A DNA stretch of 54,051 bases, from the IMG/VR virus record IMGVR_UViG_2049941000_000114; one strand, 5' to 3'. Both the position numbers and the translations under genes were made by a program. The notes beneath the pieces were generated by a model. It was given only the letters and a program-made list of their open reading frames with translations, was not told where the DNA came from and did not search any database. How positions within the stretch are numbered: the first letter of the stretch is position 1; every line of letters starts with the position of its first letter. This DNA comes from an uncultured virus (IMG/VR IMGVR_UViG_2049941000_000114) (lineage: Duplodnaviria > Heunggongvirae > Uroviricota > Caudoviricetes). Shown piece by piece: positions 32,255-45,253 of this stretch.

Positions 32255-32692
32255 CTACGGCCTTGCGAACGGAAGATCTTCATCGATTCCCGCCGGCACG
32301 TTCATAAATCCATCTGCGGGCGACTGTGTTGTAGTAGACTGTGCCTGTGGCATATCGTTACTCTGCTGTGCGTTCTTGCTCTCGGCAAATTCCTGTTCCT
32401 CAACAAGTACGTCCGTGGTATAAACTTTGTTACCGTCCTTGTTTGTGTAGGAACCTGTCTGAATACGTCCTGTGATAATGACTTTCGTACCTTTGTGAAA
32501 ATATTTCTCGGCAAATTCGCCGTTTTTACCGAGTGCGGTTATGCTGATAAAATCAGCTGACTGTTCGCCCTCTTTTTTGAATTTGCGATCTACCGCCAAT
32601 GTATACTTGGCTACCGCAATTGAATTGTCGTTTTGGGAATATCTGATTTCTGGGTCGCGTGAAAGGCGGCCACACAAGATTACTTTATTCAT
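32255..32692 (-). CDS. ssb: Single-stranded DNA-binding protein
   Basis: MNKVILCGRL..DPEIRY...GRIQTGSY...DEDLPF. Confidence 0.95.
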   Translation of the reverse strand: MNKVILCGRLSRDPEIRYSQNDNSIAVAKYTLAVDRKFKKEGEQSADFISITALGKNGEFAEKYFHKGTKVIITGRIQTGSYTNKDGNKVYTTDVLVEEQEFAESKNAQQSNDMPQAQSTTTQSPADGFMNVPAGIDEDLPFARP

Positions 32693-33178: not shown

Positions 33179-33858
33179 CTATAATTCGTATTTCGTACCG
33201 TTTCGTGCGTAATCGACAAATACGGCATCCGGCACGATTGATTTGATTTCTTCGACAATCTCGGTCGGATTTGTAGAGCCAAAGCCTAAATGAATGGCGA
33301 TTACACTTTTCATACTTGGCGTTAAATTCGTCTGAATGATGCCTTTACAGGTTTCAAGTGAACAATGGCCACCTATCTTATGATTAAAGTTCGGTGCGTC
33401 CATATCGACGTATTTTTCTTGGTAATTGACCTCGACCAAAAAGTGATTGATCTTACACGCTTTGAATGAGTACCGGCAAAAACTTAAATCCGTAAGGTAC
33501 AAAATTGACTCACCATTTATGTGCCTTATAAGCGCACCGTAACTGTTTATGTCGCCGTGTGGATTTGTAAACGCCTGTATGTAATACCCACCCATATACA
33601 TACTTGCCCGCGCTTTGTCGGTATCGTAAGGGGTGAGCATTGGTACGCCCAACCCCTCATATTCATGCCGATATTTGGCGTGATCACCTAACCGTGAGAA
33701 TGACTTATAAAGCAACCGACTATTTTACTCAAATCAAAATTGAGTGCTATCTTGGTTTCTTTTAATGCAATACCGCAATCAAGAATTAACACTTCACCGT
33801 CACAATCAATCAGATAAGTGTTTCCATCCGAGCCGGAACCCAATATGTTCAATCTCAC
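33179..33858 (-). CDS. YycJ/PhnP-like MBL-fold metallohydrolase split by 5 extra nt at the HxHxDH motif
   Basis: LGSGSDGN...LDCG...SHSHG* then DHAK...H.D...YLTD...EVNY...GH...IHL in another frame. GTG start at 33858 overlaps the upstream TGA. Joined length 224 aa. Confidence 0.85.
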
Positions 33859-34418
33859 GTAACCACCCCCTTTTCTTCGGCAAATTTCCATACAAAACCG
33901 CCCGCTTGTTTTCTTCCTTGCTCACCGCTTGCAACCTGTAATATGTTGCGTTGACAAACTCCTGTATAATTACTTGCCAACGTTGCGTTTGCATATTCCG
34001 CGATAAAGTCTCCCGCAAGTGTGTATTGAATAACTCTTTTAGGTCGAACATATCGGTTATAGCGGTTCATACCCTCAAATAGTCGTTTGTTCTGCTTATA
34101 TGTTTCTGCAACATGCTTTGCCGGATGAATTATTTCCAAATTGTCAACACGGTTATTTTGCTTATTCCCGTCCTTATGATGAACGTGATAACCTTTAGGT
34201 ATTCCACCTATAAAAGTTTGCGCGACAAGACGATGAAGTCTGTATGTATGCGAAAACCCTTTTGAGTCTTTCAATACGTGCGTAAAATACCAACCGTTTT
34301 TATTGGTTTCTTTGGTTATCCTCCACCCAAAACGTTTTGTGTAATGTTTGAGATTTCCCATGTTGGAGATTTGGTACAATCCCTCAAATCCTTTTACGTC
34401 ACGCCATTCTTCATTCAT
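33855..34418 (-). CDS. NUMOD4-HNH-NUMOD1 homing endonuclease
   Basis: EEWRDVKGFEGLYQISNMG...HRLVA...HHKDGNKQNNRVDNLE...AGGFVWKF. Confidence 0.9.
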   Translation of the reverse strand: MNEEWRDVKGFEGLYQISNMGNLKHYTKRFGWRITKETNKNGWYFTHVLKDSKGFSHTYRLHRLVAQTFIGGIPKGYHVHHKDGNKQNNRVDNLEIIHPAKHVAETYKQNKRLFEGMNRYNRYVRPKRVIQYTLAGDFIAEYANATLASNYTGVCQRNILQVASGEQGRKQAGGFVWKFAEEKGVVT

Positions 34419-35406
34419 CCTTGTTTTCCTCTACGTCTTTAGCCACCGACTCAAACACGTTTTCGTCGTCAAATTCTTCGGCGTTAGCCTGTTCTGCGAT
34501 TTCTTCCTGTGTCTGCTCATATGTTTCGTTAAGTTCCAAAAGTGAACGAGACGCCAAAGCATGTAATTCTTTCGGGTATTTCTTGATCGCATTGTTACGC
34601 ATCTTTCTACGTATCATTTCTTCCGGCGTATCAAGCCAAGCCCCCGACATATACGGTCTTGCAACTTCGCATTTGAGCATTTCGTCAACCGTTTCACACT
34701 TGCGAAGTTCCGCGTAGATTTCCTCTTTCCTTGCTTCAATCTGCTTTTTCTGATCTTCGGTGGCTTTGTAGCGATTTGCGCATATGCCGAAAGTCTCATT
34801 CATCAAATTCTGTCTCACATGAGCAAAAAGATTTGTTTTTGTGCTGTCTCGCTCTGCGATCAGATATGTTTCTTTGTTATCGTTAAGAAGAAGTGGGTAC
34901 ACAACACGAATACACTTGTTTGACAATCCTTTTGCTTCATGTTCCGGCGGGATAACTTCAAAGCCCTTTTTCTTCGGATAAGTAAAATCGTCTCCCTCGC
35001 AAACGTACCATACGTCGCCAACCATCTTTATGTTTGCCCCAAAATGACGTAACAATGAGTCATTTCCATCGCCCTCAATCTGCATTTCCACGACTTTAAC
35101 GTAGTTATCGCCTGTCTTTTTAGTACGAAGTTGGAAATAACACTCTCTGTTGGGCGCCAAAGGGTCTAACTGTAACGATGCGCAACGACCAACAATAGAT
35201 CGCAAGTTTGACATATCAATGTTGTTCATGCTTTCGCCACTGTCTTTTACCAAATGAAAGATCGCGTCTACGGCGTTCTTTGCACATTTTGTTTCGTTTT
35301 CTGCCAATGTCAAACCACTTTCTTCGTAATCACGACTAACCAAAGCGGTTAATTGGTTCTGCCATTGACTTATCGGGGTAGTTAATTCATTTTTCTGTTC
35401 TGCCAT
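34411..35406 (-). CDS. RecT-like single-strand annealing protein
   Basis: RECYFQLR...MIRRKMRNNAIKK; lies between the SMC-like ATPase and MBL genes; start MAEQK. Confidence 0.7.
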   Translation of the reverse strand: MAEQKNELTTPISQWQNQLTALVSRDYEESGLTLAENETKCAKNAVDAIFHLVKDSGESMNNIDMSNLRSIVGRCASLQLDPLAPNRECYFQLRTKKTGDNYVKVVEMQIEGDGNDSLLRHFGANIKMVGDVWYVCEGDDFTYPKKKGFEVIPPEHEAKGLSNKCIRVVYPLLLNDNKETYLIAERDSTKTNLFAHVRQNLMNETFGICANRYKATEDQKKQIEARKEEIYAELRKCETVDEMLKCEVARPYMSGAWLDTPEEMIRRKMRNNAIKKYPKELHALASRSLLELNETYEQTQEEIAEQANAEEFDDENVFESVAKDVEENKDE

Positions 35407-36004
35407 TTTGCGTTTCCTTTCTTTTTGTGAAGTATTCAATTACTTTTTCTTTATCCGTTTCCATGTTTAAGTGATATAAAAATGTTGATCGTGGTATCGC
35501 AAGTTTTTTTGACCATTCGGATATCGTAAGTTCCTCCCCTTTGTAAGAGATTGTGTTGTTTACCTTCCTTATTGGCGTTGACAGCGCTCTTTCAATCGGC
35601 CAATGCCTTTGGCCAATTCTTGTGTATAGCGTGTCTTGTGAAATTCCCAATTTGTCAGCCCATTCTGCCAATGTGTGAGTTTCCCCGTTGTATGCAATGA
35701 AACGATTTGAAGTTCGGTTGTTACTTTGAACTTTTACTGAAACCCATCGACAATTTGAAGGTTCATAATTTCCATCGCCATTAATTCTGTCAATAGTGCA
35801 ACCACGTTTTGGGGCGTTGTAGTCGTAGCCGTTAGCCAACGCCCACTCGCGAAACCGCAAATAACCATCCTTTCCCGTCCACTCGTCACATACTTTGATT
35901 CCTTTAAGCGCATAACTTGTAGCATTGGGAGCCTTGAAATCGTGACAACGGCGGTGCATGGCTCGCCATACTGTTTTTAATCGATCTCGTTTACTTGCGG
36001 CCAT
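35387..36004 (-). CDS. HNH homing endonuclease
   Basis: GIKVCDEW...TIDRI..DGNYEPSNCRW...Q.NNR...TLAEWA. Confidence 0.88.
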   Translation of the reverse strand: MAASKRDRLKTVWRAMHRRCHDFKAPNATSYALKGIKVCDEWTGKDGYLRFREWALANGYDYNAPKRGCTIDRINGDGNYEPSNCRWVSVKVQSNNRTSNRFIAYNGETHTLAEWADKLGISQDTLYTRIGQRHWPIERALSTPIRKVNNTISYKGEELTISEWSKKLAIPRSTFLYHLNMETDKEKVIEYFTKRKETQNGRTEK

Positions 36005-36010
36005 GTTTGT

Positions 36011-37906
36011 TTATTCCTCCGTTTCTACTGTTACCTTGTCGTATGCGGGGTCTACGTAAAGGCTGATAACCTGTGCGTCCATATCGGGAATTTCGGTGCA
36101 ACTTTCCCTGTTATCCGCAAATATAGGCGCGTACTTGTCGTAAGTCTTTGATAACGTCTTAATAACGTCTAATCCCGCCTGTATACGACCGGCGCTGTTA
36201 AGTTCCGCATATCCAACGCCGTTAACCGTAAGTTCGCAAGTTTCAGCGATACCGCCGTTAATTGCCTGTTCAAAGAGTTTCCACTTAACCAACTCAAACT
36301 GTCCGTTAATGCTTGCCGATACGCTGTTTAACTTCTCTTTAATAAAGTTCTCAACGAGATACAGCATCTTTTCTGCATCTGCGACTTTCTGTGATACGTC
36401 GCGCTGTTCGGTTTTAAGTTCTTCGATACGTTCATCAACGGTAGCGTTGTTGTTTGCAAGCACGATCTGTGACTCAACGGTTTTCAGATCATTTTCAAGC
36501 ACTATCAAGGCATCATTAACGTTGTTGCCGTTACATTCCGCAATCTTTGTTTCAACCTCTTTACGGCGATTAAGCAAGTCGTTGTAGCCCTTGTCGTTTG
36601 TAAGGTCAACCGAAGTGGGAATATCGTTAAGTTTTGCCTTGATACTCTCAACGTTTTCAGCGGCCTTATCTTTCAAATTCTCAACGTCGGCAAAATTGGC
36701 TTTAAGCGTATCGATTTCGGCCTTAAGGGTTTCAATCTTCGCCTTTGACTCACGCCCCTCTGCAAGCAACCTATCCATGATTGCCTTTTTCTTGCTTGCG
36801 AAATCGTTCTTTAACTCATTAACCTTGTCGTCGGGCAATGTCTGACCGCAAGTCGGGCAAATAGCCTTTGTTTCGTCAAAGACCTTTTCTTTCTCGGCCG
36901 TATACTCCGTACCCATTTCGGCACTTCGGGCGATCATAGAGTCTAACTGTCTTTCCTTGCTTGATATCTTCGACTCTGTATCGCACCATTCGGTTTCATA
37001 ACGTCTGAAAGCGTCTTTAGCATTGACAAGTTCCATATCAAGATTGCTACGCTGTTCACGGATAGATGCGTTAGCGTTACGCTCGTAATCGCTGATCTGA
37101 AAATCAAGACTTAACTTTTCTTCCTTTAACTTGCCGTAATCGTCTTTGCCGGACTCGGCTTTAACTTTCTCGATCTGCTCTTTTAAGGAATTTCTCTGTA
37201 ATTCGAGTTCAGCGACGTCGATATCAACTTTCTGCTTTGAAATCTCGTCTATACGAACAGGGAGTTCGGCTTGTTTCTTTTTGAGTTCCTTTAAAGCATT
37301 GGAATACTTTCTCTGAATGTCCTCTGTGGATCCTTTTTCGAGATCGCTTAAGAGGGCGTCGAACCCGCCAACGCGTTTAGCAATCTCAATGTCGCTTTCG
37401 GTTATAGCGAGTTTCATAAGCGTATCGCGCTGTTCTTTCCACTTCATGTTCGGGAAATACAAGGGATTTGTGAGTATCTTGAAAAGGTTCTCATCCATGA
37501 CAGACGCGATAAAGTCCTTGTATTCCTTTTCAGATTTCGGGAACCCATCAATTTCATATTTATTGACGTTGCCCTTAAATACCGCTGTCTCTGAACCGCG
37601 CTGTTTAACCCAATTCTGACTCTGAACTTTCTTAAGTTCGGTTTCCTTGCCATCAATGTCGATTACCGCCGATACTGTGATATCCACGTAATCAACAAAC
37701 TTACCATCACTGTCGATCGGTCTTAAGTCAAACTTTTCGGAATATACGCTGTTCTTGTTAAAGAGTAGCCATAAGAAAGCGTCAACGATCGTTGTCTTGC
37801 CGGACGCGTTACGTCCAAGAATTTTAGATTTGTTTGAGAATGAAAGTTCAAGGTCTTTAATTCCTTTGAAGTTTTCAAGTTTGATGCTTTTAAGTGTTAA
37901 TTTCAT
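36011..37906 (-). CDS. SMC/SbcC-like AAA ATPase
   Basis: ENFKG, GRNASGKTT, coiled coil with CPTCGQ hook, PIFADNRES. Confidence 0.88.
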   Translation of the reverse strand: MKLTLKSIKLENFKGIKDLELSFSNKSKILGRNASGKTTIVDAFLWLLFNKNSVYSEKFDLRPIDSDGKFVDYVDITVSAVIDIDGKETELKKVQSQNWVKQRGSETAVFKGNVNKYEIDGFPKSEKEYKDFIASVMDENLFKILTNPLYFPNMKWKEQRDTLMKLAITESDIEIAKRVGGFDALLSDLEKGSTEDIQRKYSNALKELKKKQAELPVRIDEISKQKVDIDVAELELQRNSLKEQIEKVKAESGKDDYGKLKEEKLSLDFQISDYERNANASIREQRSNLDMELVNAKDAFRRYETEWCDTESKISSKERQLDSMIARSAEMGTEYTAEKEKVFDETKAICPTCGQTLPDDKVNELKNDFASKKKAIMDRLLAEGRESKAKIETLKAEIDTLKANFADVENLKDKAAENVESIKAKLNDIPTSVDLTNDKGYNDLLNRRKEVETKIAECNGNNVNDALIVLENDLKTVESQIVLANNNATVDERIEELKTEQRDVSQKVADAEKMLYLVENFIKEKLNSVSASINGQFELVKWKLFEQAINGGIAETCELTVNGVGYAELNSAGRIQAGLDVIKTLSKTYDKYAPIFADNRESCTEIPDMDAQVISLYVDPAYDKVTVETEE

Positions 37907-44077: not shown

Positions 44078-45253
44078 GTGCCTATGTTAATCAAATGCCC
44101 CGAATGTGGTTCTGACATATCAGACAAGGCGTATTCATGCCCTCATTGTGGTTATCCGATAAAGATACCGCCTACGGTAAAACAGGCGTCCTCTCGGTCA
44201 CGTATGCGTTTTAAACGCCTACCAAGTGGCTTTGGCACCATTAAGCATTTATCGGGTAAGCGTAGGAACCCTTACGTTGCCTATCCGACCGCTAAAGAAA
44301 AAGGCTATATGTTAAGCGGTTCGCCTATAAGTCGTAGTGCAATCGGCTACTATTCTACATATCAAGATGCTTATAATGCCTTATTGGAATACAACAAAAA
44401 GCCTTATGACGTGGAAAACAAAGATATAACGTTTGCCGAAGTCCATCAAATGTATTTCAGTGAAAAATTTAATGACCCTAACCGCACCTATTCTGTATCA
44501 TCAATAAACAGCGCTAAAAGCGGGTTTGGAAATCTTAAAGCCATACACGACATTCCTATTCGTCAGTTAAAAACATACCAAATCCAAAAGGTTATAGACG
44601 AATGTACCCTTAAACACGCATCTATTGAATTAATGCTTTTATGTCTTAAAGGTGTGTATGCGTTTGCCGTAAAAAACGATATTGTTGATAAAGATTATTC
44701 GAAATATGTTGAAAAGAAACGTGTCGAAGATGATGAAAAGGGCGAACCTTTTACCGAAGATCAGATAAAAACGCTTTGGAAACACAAAGATAATTCAACG
44801 GCTCAAATAGCATTGATTATGATATATTCGGGATTGCGCATAAAGGAACTCGAAACCATAACGATAGATTTAGAACATAACGTTATGATCGGTGGCTTAA
44901 AGACACGTTCCGGCAAAAACAGAACTATTCCGATACACCCCGCAATTAAAGATATGATTGCAAAATTTGAACCCAATACTTTTAGCGCTGAATACTATCG
45001 TAAAAACAGATTTTATTCATTGTTGCAAGAGTTAGACATTCAAACATCGGCAATAGGAACAAAACATACACCGCATGATTGCCGACATACCTTTGTTTGG
45101 CTTGCTGATAAATACAGGCTTGACACTTTGGCTAAAAAGATGATCGTCGGACACGCTTTGGGGAATGACATTGATGATAACACATACGGTCATAGAACGG
45201 CCGAAGAATTATACTCTGAAATTTGCAAAATTACACTCGGAAAACAGGCTTGA
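44078..45253 (+). CDS. int: Tyrosine integrase with N-terminal zinc ribbon
   Basis: SGLR, K, HDCRHT, GH, Y catalytic set; CPEC/CPHC N-terminus. Confidence 0.93.
   Translation: MPMLIKCPECGSDISDKAYSCPHCGYPIKIPPTVKQASSRSRMRFKRLPSGFGTIKHLSGKRRNPYVAYPTAKEKGYMLSGSPISRSAIGYYSTYQDAYNALLEYNKKPYDVENKDITFAEVHQMYFSEKFNDPNRTYSVSSINSAKSGFGNLKAIHDIPIRQLKTYQIQKVIDECTLKHASIELMLLCLKGVYAFAVKNDIVDKDYSKYVEKKRVEDDEKGEPFTEDQIKTLWKHKDNSTAQIALIMIYSGLRIKELETITIDLEHNVMIGGLKTRSGKNRTIPIHPAIKDMIAKFEPNTFSAEYYRKNRFYSLLQELDIQTSAIGTKHTPHDCRHTFVWLADKYRLDTLAKKMIVGHALGNDIDDNTYGHRTAEELYSEICKITLGKQA

What the first reader, a model, noticed from the sequence alone, without database searches (positions are those of the whole stretch)
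33677..33705. Candidate programmed ribosomal stop-hop (translational bypass) in the active-site motif of an MBL-fold gene
Seen: the minus strand reads AGT CAT TCT CAC GGT TA GGT GAT CAC GCC. A GGT codon (33693-33691) is followed at once by TAG (33690-33688), and an identical GGT (33688-33686) lies 5 nt on, overlapping the stop. Taking off from the first GGT and landing on the second gives S-H-S-H-G-D-H, the exact HxHxDH metal motif, in a 224-aa protein. Readthrough or a simple -1 slip would not restore that spacing. The extra 5 nt are not a perfect tandem duplication (ACGGT vs TAGGT), not a homopolymer and not near a gap, and both halves keep their motifs. Known: matched take-off/landing codons with an adjacent stop define T4 gene 60 bypassing and stop-hopping. 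Inference: a recoding signal that sets the amount of full-length hydrolase in the recombination module.
Basis: partly seen in the sequence, partly recalled or inferred. Interest (0 to 1): 0.82.

Follow-up and report, generated by a model that had tools for sequence, protein, structure and literature searches.

The report
Stop-hop gap in phage hydrolase gene
A phage enzyme gene is interrupted inside its active-site motif by five extra bases carrying a stop codon, and the same kind of interruption recurs under selection in many phages, mostly beside a homing nuclease gene, so ribosomes probably hop over it.

Summary
On the minus strand CAC GGT TAG overlaps GGT GAT CAC at 33686-33696. An MBL-fold gene is split into 56-codon and 168-codon frames, and a +5 hop would give HSHGDH and a 224-aa protein, the length of intact relatives.

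It is not an artefact or a singleton. A depth-155 contig of the probable source sample, and contigs from two other studies, carry the same 5 nt. In the window's clade, 15 of 18 N-half protein clusters end at H-x-H-G plus stop.

Among 257 unique family genes with DNA, 145 carry a gap at this exact codon, in 19 layouts of 1 to 11 nt. A stop follows the take-off codon in all 19. In 17 the landing codon is synonymous, or the site is prfB-like. Every layout restores HxHxDH.

Gapped genes are as constrained as intact ones, with dN/dS of 0.045 (N-half) and 0.095 (C-half).

A NUMOD4-HNH endonuclease gene lies directly upstream in the window. Of 62 relatives found through that endonuclease, 59 are gapped, against 33 of 142 found through the hydrolase.

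Best reading (confidence 0.62): a cassette like T4 mobA/gene 60, in which the gap is hopped by the ribosome and probably blocks self-cleavage. Translation across the gap and nuclease specificity were not tested.

The parts
34411..35439 (-). RecT-like single-strand annealing protein gene. Its last codons overlap the HNH start (ATGAATGA).
   Evidence: Pfam RecT E 4.4e-6; phrog_2185 E 1.3e-77; sequence.
33855..34418 (-). NUMOD4 + HNH_3 homing-endonuclease gene (187 aa), wedged between recT and the hydrolase gene. Its TGA overlaps the hydrolase GTG start (GTGA).
   Evidence: Pfam HNH_3 1.6e-14 and NUMOD4 5.3e-12. It is absent from variant contigs in X5, X6 and X10. Orthologues (273-322 bits) sit in the same place only beside gapped genes in that survey.
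33863..33870 (-). Shine-Dalgarno-like GGGGGTGG inside the 3' end of the HNH gene, 4 nt before the hydrolase GTG start.
   Evidence: Read. The equivalent gaggtgg + ATG arrangement is seen in the cassettes of other clades.
33691..33858 (-). Hydrolase ORF1: 56 codons from GTG to the take-off GGT, ending ...S-H-S-H-G.
   Evidence: Pfam Lactamase_B E 2.8e-5. 15 of 18 related N-half clusters end at the same residue.
33691..33693 (-). Take-off codon GGT (Gly, fourth residue of HxHxDH).
   Evidence: The take-off codon is GGT in 109 of 145 unique gapped genes.
33688..33690 (-). TAG stop codon, in frame directly after the take-off codon.
   Evidence: A stop follows the take-off codon in 19 of 19 layouts.
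33686..33690 (-). The 5-nt coding gap (TAGGT). It is skipped if peptidyl-tRNA-Gly re-pairs with the second GGT (33688-33686).
   Evidence: An HNH-less relative in X10 replaces 87 letters here with 82, which is 5 fewer.
33179..33685 (-). Hydrolase ORF2: 168 codons from GAT CAC (the D-H of the motif) to the stop at 33181-33179.
   Evidence: phrog_392 'metal-dependent hydrolase' E 1.8e-25. It is 85-95% identical to intact 224-aa relatives.
32255..32692 (-). SSB gene, part of the same recombination/replication module.
   Evidence: Pfam SSB E 1.9e-29.

Best explanation
The 5 nt are a short coding gap inside the HxHxDH metal-binding motif of a phage MBL-fold phosphodiesterase/nuclease gene (phrog_392) in a RecT-SSB recombination module.

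Inferred decoding: the ribosome reads ORF1 up to GGT. With TAG in the A site, peptidyl-tRNA-Gly unpairs, the mRNA slips 5 nt, and the tRNA re-pairs with the next GGT. Decoding resumes at GAT CAC. The product is a 224-aa enzyme with an exact HSHGDH motif. Ribosomes that do not hop terminate and release a 56-aa fragment.

Inferred reason for the gap: a NUMOD4-HNH homing endonuclease is inserted directly upstream. The endonuclease and the gap behave as one cassette, as in T4 mobA/gene 60. The gap would break up the conserved DNA that the endonuclease recognises, protecting the carrier genome, while hopping keeps the enzyme.

Shown here: the gap is real; it recurs at the same codon in many lineages with different sequences and lengths; both halves stay under purifying selection; and the gap is strongly associated with the HNH gene.

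Inferred, not shown: the hop itself, its efficiency, and the nuclease's target.
For: (1) Recurrence. Of 257 unique family genes, 145 have a gap exactly between the fourth motif codon and GAY CAY, in 19 layouts of 1, 2, 4, 5, 6, 7, 10 or 11 nt. A stop follows the take-off codon in 19 of 19 layouts. In 17 of 19 layouts (126 of 145 genes) the landing codon is synonymous (Gly, Leu or Val pairs) or the site is CTT TGA C. Every layout restores HxHxDH.

(2) Gap length changes inside 70%-identity clusters ({6,10}, {6,11}, {4,5}, {5,6}). This includes an in-frame and a +1 form that differ by TTAA. Codon-by-codon reading of the gap does not explain that.

(3) Selection. In the gut clade, gapped-gapped pairs have median dN/dS 0.045 (N-half, median dS 0.79) and 0.095 (C-half). 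Intact-intact pairs give 0.043 and 0.082. All 32 gapped genes keep GDH, the same length and no extra stops. Other layouts mostly give medians of 0.06-0.28.

(4) All 14 unique 6-nt inserts in the first census, and all 43 in the full census, carry a stop in the frame being read; none is two sense codons.

(5) Window clade. 15 of 18 N-half clusters (62-96% identity) end at H-x-H-G plus stop, and some have substitutions beside the break.

(6) HNH link. Of 62 genes found through the endonuclease, 59 are gapped. At the unique-gene level the split is 37 of 40 against 33 of 142 for genes found through the hydrolase (Fisher p 7.8e-16). At the cluster level p is 4e-4.

(7) In the window's population, HNH-less variants are 5 nt shorter here (X10: 82 letters for 87; X5: 171 letters where 176 are expected). 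The HNH+gap segment is nearly identical across studies, while the C-half differs by 43 of 614 nt.

(8) Precedent. The MobA HNH element plus the gene 60 bypass cassette protects against MobA nicking (10.1101/2022.08.31.505936, section 12 read). Synthetic stop-hops with matched codons are described in PMC5009743 (passages read).
Against: There is no protein, ribosome-profiling or RNA evidence.

Reported stop-hops in synthetic constructs are inefficient (my recollection, roughly 1%). No shared stimulatory RNA structure was found: 84-nt windows of gapped genes fold less stably than intact ones (median -13.6 against -19.1 kcal/mol).

Two layouts have landing codons that match the take-off codon only at positions 2 and 3: TAT TGA then GAC (15 genes) and GGT TGA then AGC (4 genes).

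Many gapped genes have no adjacent HNH (58 of 76). No neighbouring ORF is positively linked to the gap in the gut clade. Three HNH-adjacent genes are ungapped. So the immunity link is not obligatory, or the nuclease is often lost.

Matched codons could partly be a by-product of small duplications made during repair. Counts are not phylogenetically independent, and two of the surveys were ascertained by a pattern that demands a gap.

Other gapped members of the window's own clade are known only as proteins.
Confidence: 0.62

Rival explanations
1. The gap is only a scar or immunity mark left by the homing endonuclease. The hydrolase is dead in gapped phages. The apparent constraint reflects recent spread of the gap into previously intact genes, or recombination with intact alleles.
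For: The gap is linked to a selfish HNH gene. Gapped alleles carry a distinct patch of flanking sequence that could move by gene conversion. The HNH+gap segment looks recently transferred between backgrounds. The 2-nt layout (L062/L063) is a single sequence and could be a plain lesion.
Against: Gapped-gapped pairs reach median dS 0.79 (N-half) and 0.31 (C-half), yet dN/dS equals that of intact genes. None of the 32 gut-clade gapped genes has a second lesion. Gapped genes form their own clades in the C-half tree. 34 of 57 clusters hold gapped genes (32 gapped only, 2 mixed). A stop directly after the take-off codon in 19 of 19 layouts is not expected from random scars.
Confidence: 0.12
2. The two frames are translated separately and assemble into a two-piece enzyme. 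The C piece would start at TTG 33715, or by re-initiation after the stop.
For: In the window, a TTG at 33715 opens the C frame 9 codons before GDH. T4 Topo II works as split subunits, according to the preprint's section 12.
Against: In the 10-nt layouts the C frame has a stop codon immediately before the landing codon. In L062 and L076 the first ATG/GTG/TTG of the C frame lies after the D-H residues. A C piece made there would therefore lack two metal ligands that are kept in 32 of 32 genes. The 6-nt layouts are in frame. There is no good Shine-Dalgarno sequence before TTG 33715.
Confidence: 0.08
3. Recoding occurs but not by hopping. Instead it is ordinary frameshifting (-1, +1 or +2) or stop readthrough, by a different route for each layout, giving enzymes with one or two extra residues in the motif.
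For: One relative has the classic prfB heptamer CTT TGA C (L417). For the 4-nt layout TAT TGA C GAC, a +1 shift is as easy to draw as a +4 hop. SD-like AGGTG or AGGAG overlaps many landing sites.
Against: Gaps of 5, 6, 10 and 11 nt would need -1, 0, +1 and -1 frame changes. They would give HxHxxDH or HxHxxxDH, whereas all 112 intact genes keep HxHxDH spacing. The window site has no slippery run. Only re-pairing on the landing codon gives one product for all layouts.
Confidence: 0.1
4. The gap is removed before translation, in DNA of a subpopulation or in the mRNA.
For: This was not excluded. Only assembled contigs, which drop rare variants, could be laid.
Against: No mechanism is known that excises 1-11 nt precisely. 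The direct repeats are only 2-3 nt long. The stop after the take-off codon would have no role. Contigs at depth 155 show only the gapped form.
Confidence: 0.05

Closest known systems
T4 gene 60 translational bypass with the MobA HNH homing endonuclease (Bonocora et al. 2011, seen only as a reference in PMC5009743; Manning & Atkins preprint 10.1101/2022.08.31.505936, abstract and section 12 read)
   Same: An HNH homing-endonuclease gene sits next to a gene interrupted by a non-coding insert. The insert lies in a region that encodes a metal-binding site. The take-off is a Gly codon followed at once by a stop, with a matching Gly landing codon. The gap is present in nearly all endonuclease carriers and persists in relatives that lack the endonuclease.
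   Different: The target gene differs (MBL-fold hydrolase, not topoisomerase II). The gap is 1-11 nt, not 50 nt. No shared stem-loop was found. The endonuclease does not split the gene but sits upstream of it. There are many unrelated gap sequences at one site rather than one conserved cassette. Homology of this HNH to MobA was not tested.
Synthetic 'stop-hops' and tRNA hopping in E. coli (cited as ref. 54 in PMC5009743; passages read)
   Same: Matched codons flank a stop codon. The P-site tRNA re-pairs a few nucleotides downstream. The 6-nt layouts (for example GGT TAA GGA and CTC TGA CTG) have the layout that review describes for them.
   Different: Those were engineered constructs. The review states that no natural in-frame stop-hop is known. 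Here the layouts are natural, conserved and under selection.
prfB (RF2) programmed +1 frameshift, CUU UGA C
   Same: A stop codon in the A site drives P-site tRNA re-pairing. One relative (L417) carries exactly CTT TGA C at this motif position.
   Different: The window's site needs +5, not +1. No autoregulatory logic through RF2 was tested.
Mitochondrial 'byp' inserts of Magnusiomyces (mentioned in PMC5009743; passage read)
   Same: The review describes many short nucleotide inserts in coding sequence that are corrected at translation. That their take-off and landing codons match is my recollection.
   Different: Those inserts are 27-55 nt by my recollection, scattered over many genes, and have no endonuclease link. 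Here one codon position of one gene family is hit repeatedly.
'Savior' indel with low-level compensatory frameshifting (herpesvirus thymidine kinase; PMC5009743 passage read)
   Same: An indel that is useful at the DNA level is tolerated because a fraction of ribosomes restores the frame.
   Different: That case is a homopolymer slip selected by a drug. Here the benefit would be immunity to a homing nuclease.

Membership tests
Programmed translational bypassing / hopping | Take-off and landing codons readable by the same peptidyl-tRNA | tested here: met
   Window: GGT and GGT. The landing codon is synonymous or prfB-like in 17 of 19 layouts, which is 126 of 145 unique genes. Two layouts match at only 2 of 3 positions.
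Programmed translational bypassing / hopping | Stop or slow-to-decode codon directly 3' of the take-off codon | tested here: met
   TAG in the window. TAG, TAA or TGA in 19 of 19 layouts.
Programmed translational bypassing / hopping | Both ORFs conserved as parts of one protein | tested here: met
   dN/dS is 0.045 (N-half) and 0.095 (C-half) in gapped pairs, equal to intact pairs. The hop product has the length and motif of intact relatives.
Programmed translational bypassing / hopping | Stimulatory mRNA structure at the take-off site (as in gene 60) | tested here: inconclusive
   Only small, differing hairpins are predicted. Gapped windows fold less stably than intact ones. Short hops may not need a structure.
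Programmed translational bypassing / hopping | Nascent-peptide signal | not testable with these tools
   The 18 residues before the break are nearly invariant in the window clade, but they are also part of the fold.
Programmed translational bypassing / hopping | A single polypeptide spanning the gap is observed | not testable with these tools
   No RNA run was listed. No proteomic data were available.
MobA-type homing endonuclease + bypass cassette | HNH homing-endonuclease gene adjacent to the interrupted gene | tested here: met
   HNH_3 + NUMOD4 gene at 33855-34418, overlapping both neighbouring genes. Orthologues occupy the same position in other clades.
MobA-type homing endonuclease + bypass cassette | Endonuclease carriers have the gap; some gapped genes lack the endonuclease | tested here: met
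   59 of 62 HNH-adjacent genes are gapped. 58 of 76 gapped genes lack an adjacent HNH.
MobA-type homing endonuclease + bypass cassette | The insert protects the carrier from cleavage by its own endonuclease | not testable with these tools
   This needs an in vitro cleavage or nicking assay.
MobA-type homing endonuclease + bypass cassette | The cassette moves between genomes | tested here: inconclusive
   The HNH+gap segment is nearly identical in another study (X5 record 10, 1 difference in 812 nt), while another X5 contig that abuts it over the rest of the C-half differs by 43 of 614 nt. L209 and L255 have hydrolases 96% and 86% identical (N- and C-half) but HNH proteins only 56% identical. 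This is suggestive only.
MobA-type homing endonuclease + bypass cassette | Inserted in the topoisomerase II large-subunit gene with the conserved 50-nt cassette | tested here: not met
   The target is an MBL-fold hydrolase and the gap is 5 nt. It works like this element but is not a member of it.
MBL-fold hydrolase (Pfam Lactamase_B; phrog_392) | HxHxDH motif, downstream His/Asp ligands and the MBL fold | tested here: met
   N-half: Lactamase_B E 2.8e-5. C-half: phrog_392 E 1.8e-25. The model of intact relative P0002 has pLDDT 95.4; its best PDB matches are ELAC homologue 1zkp (E 1.3e-13), YhfI, tRNase Z, Apyc1 and PhnP. The motif is complete only after the hop.
Anti-Pycsar nuclease Apyc1 (PF23023) | Score above the Pfam gathering threshold | tested here: not met
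   17-21 bits against a cut-off of 50, N-terminal region only. PDB 7u2s gives E 0.0033. Some database relatives are annotated Apyc1-like.

The most novel reading that the evidence does not exclude
A homing endonuclease repeatedly drives the appearance of tiny stop-containing inserts (1-11 nt, at least 19 layouts) at one codon of an active-site motif. Phages keep the enzyme because ribosomes hop or shift over these inserts.

This would be the first natural family of short stop-hops, including in-frame ones. It would also be the second, independently evolved, endonuclease-plus-bypass cassette after T4 mobA/gene 60. The many layouts would form a ready-made natural mutational series for studying take-off and landing rules.
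Probability: 0.55. Interest if true: 0.95.

Novelty: new variant of a known kind. Interest (0 to 1): 0.9.

Why it matters
Efficient translational bypassing has rested essentially on one bacterial-virus example, T4 gene 60. The 2022 preprint read here still calls that cassette unique, and the 2016 review read here says no natural in-frame stop-hop is known.

If these gaps are hopped, they give dozens of natural variants for working out what a ribosome needs to take off and land. The variants differ in gap length (1-11 nt), use three stop codons, use Gly, Leu, Val and Tyr take-off codons, and include both matched and partly matched landing codons.

They would also show that pairing a homing nuclease with a gap that the ribosome skips is a repeatable evolutionary solution, not a one-off.

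There is a practical consequence too. Gene callers split or truncate these genes: 56-aa and 153-178-aa fragments are in the protein databases. A common phage enzyme is therefore being mis-annotated as broken.

Tried and rejected
**Searches that found nothing or were unavailable**
- DNA search of the gene against INPHARED phages found nothing.
- A single-protein scan of IMG/VR gave one weak locus.
- The GTDB genome scan gave 3 distant intact loci.
Earlier scan notes held nothing.
- DNA of the other gapped members of the window's own clade could not be obtained. They are known only as proteins.
- No RNA holder was listed among the sequencing runs.
- Bonocora 2011 (PMC3182709) is not held. I cite it only through the review's reference list.
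- Five literature searches found no paper on a bypass or hop in an MBL-fold or phrog_392 gene.

**Corrected counts**
- The first tblastn count called 106 of 114 loci intact. It missed in-frame gaps, which align as one segment. It was replaced by the junction censuses.

**Checks on the rivals**
- A search for a neighbouring ORF linked to the gap in the gut clade found none (best positive p 0.028).
- RNA folding found no shared structure.
- A profile search of PDB sequences with alignment A1 found nothing.

**Chance control for the +5 pattern**
- 52 of 116 hits were outside the family. About 50 of these carry the junction (or a one-base variant) found in the three I translated, where it lies in another frame of an ordinary long ORF.

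**Rejected explanations**
- Assembly or sequencing error.
- Stop-codon reassignment: all three stops are used in the gaps and at gene ends.
- A phage-encoded suppressor or odd tRNA.

**Not run**
- The complex-prediction tool was not used, because halves of a split fold tend to pass by likeness to solved structures.
Full report
**The site**

The minus strand reads ...AGT CAT TCT CAC GGT TAG GTG ATC ACG CC.... GGT lies at 33693-33691, TAG at 33690-33688, and a second GGT at 33688-33686 overlaps the stop and is followed by GAT CAC.

ORF1 runs from the GTG at 33858 for 56 codons and ends S-H-S-H-G. The other frame continues G-D-H-A-K-Y... for 169 codons to the stop at 33181-33179.

- The N-half matches Pfam Lactamase_B (E 2.8e-5).
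- The C-half matches phrog_392 'metal-dependent hydrolase' (E 1.8e-25).
- A +5 move from the first GGT to the second gives HSHGDH and 224 aa, the length of intact relatives.
- A -1 slip, a +2 shift or TAG readthrough would give the wrong spacing or the wrong frame.

**Not an artefact, not a singleton**

The window comes from a bovine gut metagenome.

- An independent assembly of the probable source sample has a depth-155 contig covering 33027-34500 with no difference.
- Contigs from two other studies carry the same form: X5 record 10 (812 nt, 1 difference, no gaps) and X6 record 16 (305 nt, 0 differences).
- In the large protein collection, P0001 (97% identical, 5 contigs) is the same broken C-half, including the out-of-frame lead-in.
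- A search with the 56-aa N-half found 18 clusters. Fifteen of them, 62-96% identical, end at H-x-H-G plus stop. The other three read through.
- Some of the 15 have substitutions right beside the break (THAHG, SHVHG). The break has therefore persisted while its flanks changed.

**DNA from more distant relatives**

Scans of metagenome, IMG/VR and GTDB contigs with a family alignment gave 114 loci.

- Seven showed a frame change at the same codon. L062 and L063 read CAT GTG TAG ACC with GTA GAC CAT in the new frame. L076 and L078-L081 read CAT GGT TGA TTA AGGT GAC CAT, or GGT TAA TTA AGGA.
- Close relatives of L076 in IMG/VR (80 loci) added in-frame forms such as GGT TAA GGA GAT CAC and GGC TAA GGC.
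- Pattern scans found the window's own +5 layout (CAY NNN CAY GGN TAG GN GAY CAY) in 116 or more IMG/VR loci. In 64 of them both halves belong to this family, with 12 junction sequences in at least 14 clusters at 70% identity.
- The other 52 are mostly one junction sequence that, in the three loci translated, lies in another frame of an ordinary long ORF. They serve as a chance control.
- The in-frame TAA layout occurs in 47 loci, 44 of them in the family.

**The census**

Of 352 genes parsed, 351 had the downstream frame confirmed by the family profile, and 257 are unique. Of these, 112 are ungapped and 145 are gapped. The 19 layouts are:

| Gap (nt) | Layout | Unique genes |
|---|---|---|
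| 1 | CTT TGA C | 1 |
| 2 | GTG TAG, landing GTA | 1 |
| 4 | TAT TGA, landing GAC | 15 |
| 5 | GGT TAG, landing GGA / GGC / GGT | 42 / 12 / 2 (the window is one of the 2) |
| 5 | GGT TGA, landing AGC | 4 |
| 6 | GGT TAA GGA / GGC / GGT | 15 / 11 / 4 |
| 6 | GGA TAA GGA | 8 |
| 6 | GGC TAA GGC | 1 |
| 6 | CTC TGA CTG | 4 |
| 7 | CTG TGA C CTG | 1 |
| 7 | CTT TAG G CTT | 1 |
| 10 | three layouts | 19 |
| 11 | GGT TAA CCCAT GGC | 4 |

- In all 19 layouts the take-off codon is followed at once by a stop.
- In 17 layouts the landing codon is synonymous, or the site is the prfB heptamer.
- All layouts restore HxHxDH.
- None of the 43 six-nt inserts consists of sense codons.
- Ungapped genes use GGA (64) or GGG (7) when the fourth residue is Gly, and never GGT. 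This fits inserts of the form GGTTA, GGTTAA or GGTT(A/G)ATTAA placed before the original codon.

**Selection**

In the human-gut clade there are 98 unique genes, 32 gapped and 66 intact.

- Gapped-gapped pairs have median dN/dS 0.045 in the N-half (median dS 0.79) and 0.095 in the C-half (median dS 0.31).
- Intact-intact pairs give 0.043 and 0.082.
- All 32 gapped genes keep GDH, the same C-half length and no further stops.
- The gapped genes form two clades of the C-half tree, in which 6- and 10-nt forms are mixed.
- Other layouts give medians of 0.06-0.28, including the two with imperfect landing codons. One group (GGA TAA GGA, C-half 0.44) was saturated and aligned without gaps.
- Gap length varies inside 70%-identity clusters.

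A dead gene does not fit these numbers.

A two-piece enzyme fits poorly. In the 10-nt layouts the downstream frame has a stop right before the landing codon. In L062 and L076 its first start codon lies after the D-H ligands.

**The endonuclease**

Directly upstream of ORF1 lies a 187-aa NUMOD4 + HNH_3 gene.

- Its ATG sits inside the end of recT (ATGAATGA).
- Its TGA overlaps the hydrolase GTG (GTGA).
- Its 3' end supplies the Shine-Dalgarno sequence.

Variant contigs in X5, X6 and X10 lack this gene. In X6 the junction recreates ATG AAA CTT, so in HNH-less phages the hydrolase starts at the very ATG that the HNH gene uses in the window.

This fits the protein data. Thirteen of 15 gapped N-halves have Arg at position 2 and none has Lys, while 6 of 8 readthrough forms start MK.

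The HNH-less variants are 5 nt shorter at the motif. X10 replaces 87 letters with 82. X5 record 11 has 171 letters where a gapped form would have 176. The X5 figure is my arithmetic and assumes the X6 junction.

Two contig-length fingerprints place HNH relatives on the same contigs as gapped halves: 25,555 nt (P0030 and P0001) and 7,949 nt (P0031 and P0013).

A profile of 120 HNH relatives gave strong hits (273-322 bits) only directly upstream of gapped genes: 18 of 76 gapped against 0 of 101 intact.

In the reciprocal survey I searched IMG/VR with the endonuclease and then looked downstream.

- 64 of 80 loci had an orthologue.
- 62 of those had the hydrolase next to it, and 59 of the 62 were gapped.
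- The 3 ungapped ones have Phe or Thr at the fourth motif position.

At the unique-gene level this is 37 gapped to 3 intact, against 33 to 109 for genes found through the hydrolase (p 7.8e-16). At the level of 57 clusters, 16 of 17 clusters with the HNH hold gapped genes, against 18 of 40 without it (p 4e-4). These tests ignore shared ancestry.

Many gapped genes lack the HNH, and no other neighbouring ORF tracks the gap.

HNH proteins are 52-66% identical between clades whose hydrolase C-halves are 30-45% identical. L209 and L255 have nearly the same hydrolase (96% and 86% for the two halves) but HNH proteins only 56% identical. This suggests turnover of the endonuclease.

**Comparison with what is known**

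The nearest system is T4 mobA/gene 60. According to the Manning & Atkins preprint (abstract and section 12 read):

- the HNH endonuclease and the 50-nt bypass form one mobile element;
- the bypass insert prevents MobA nicking;
- it is found in every phage with the endonuclease and in several that lost it;
- it 'remains unique'.

The 2016 review (passages read) describes synthetic stop-hops with matched codons flanking a stop. It says no natural in-frame stop-hop is known.

The present case shares the logic and the codon-stop-codon anatomy. It differs in target gene, gap size, lack of a shared RNA structure, and the variety of inserts at one site. It is not a member of the MobA element.

The enzyme itself is a small MBL-fold phosphodiesterase or nuclease.

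- The model of intact relative P0002 (pLDDT 95.4) is nearest to ELAC/RNase Z-like proteins, YhfI, Apyc1 and PhnP.
- It fails the Apyc1 Pfam threshold.
- Its substrate is unknown. It always sits beside RecT.

**Verdict**

The gap is real, widespread, conserved and under selection, so some non-standard decoding is needed. A hop of peptidyl-tRNA onto the next matching codon is the one mechanism that explains all layouts with a single product. The link to the homing endonuclease gives a reason for the gap.

Hopping, its efficiency and the nuclease's target remain inferences. No RNA or protein data were available, and the window clade's other members are known only as proteins.

Noticed in passing
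window 35387-36004 (-): A second, unrelated HNH endonuclease gene (phrog_3377, E 3.7e-51) sits between the SbcC-like ATPase gene (36011-37906) and recT. The recombination module therefore carries two free-standing endonuclease genes.
   Followed up: no
window 34411-34418 and 33855-33858: The HNH gene has taken over the recT-coupled ATG that starts the hydrolase in HNH-less variants. It gives the hydrolase a new GTG start plus a Shine-Dalgarno sequence from its own 3' end. The same 'gaggtgg...ATG' arrangement recurs in other clades.
   Followed up: partly
L417 (IMG/VR): One HNH-adjacent relative has CAT CTT TGA CCA C at the motif. This is the E. coli prfB +1 frameshift heptamer CTT TGA C, and a +1 slip would restore HxHxDH.
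   Followed up: partly
L441 = GenBank MT838995.1, locus 1001-1800: An unannotated GenBank phage scaffold from human faeces carries the cassette. An HNH orthologue (49% identical) is followed by the hydrolase with CAT CTC TGA CTT GAT CAC, an in-frame Leu-stop-Leu layout.
   Followed up: yes
L407, L411, L422: The only three HNH-adjacent hydrolase genes without a gap have Phe or Thr at the fourth motif position (CAT TTT GAT CAT; CAT ACT GAT CAT). These may be naturally resistant target sequences.
   Followed up: no
L209 vs L255: The hydrolase genes are nearly identical (96% N-half, 86% C-half), but the upstream HNH proteins are only 56% identical. This suggests replacement of one endonuclease by another at the same site.
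   Followed up: no
L200, L201, L206 and about 48 other loci: The +5 pattern also hits one junction sequence in about 50 loci outside the family. In the three loci translated it lies in another frame of an ordinary long ORF, with no stop in the frame actually read, so it is a pure chance match.
   Followed up: yes
gut-clade loci L116-L195: An 89-aa ORF downstream of the hydrolase is present in 39 of 52 loci then classed as intact (that class still held a few in-frame gapped forms) but only 9 of 28 gapped loci (p 0.0003). This probably reflects clade structure.
   Followed up: no
window 44078-45253 (+): An integrase gene (phrog_1, E 9e-31), together with portal, terminase and major head genes, shows that the window is a temperate tailed phage or prophage of about 54 kb.
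   Followed up: no
L062 4396-4962: A 188-aa ORF with a weak GIY-YIG match (E 3.4e-4, below threshold) lies 1.2 kb downstream of the 2-nt-gapped hydrolase gene.
   Followed up: no
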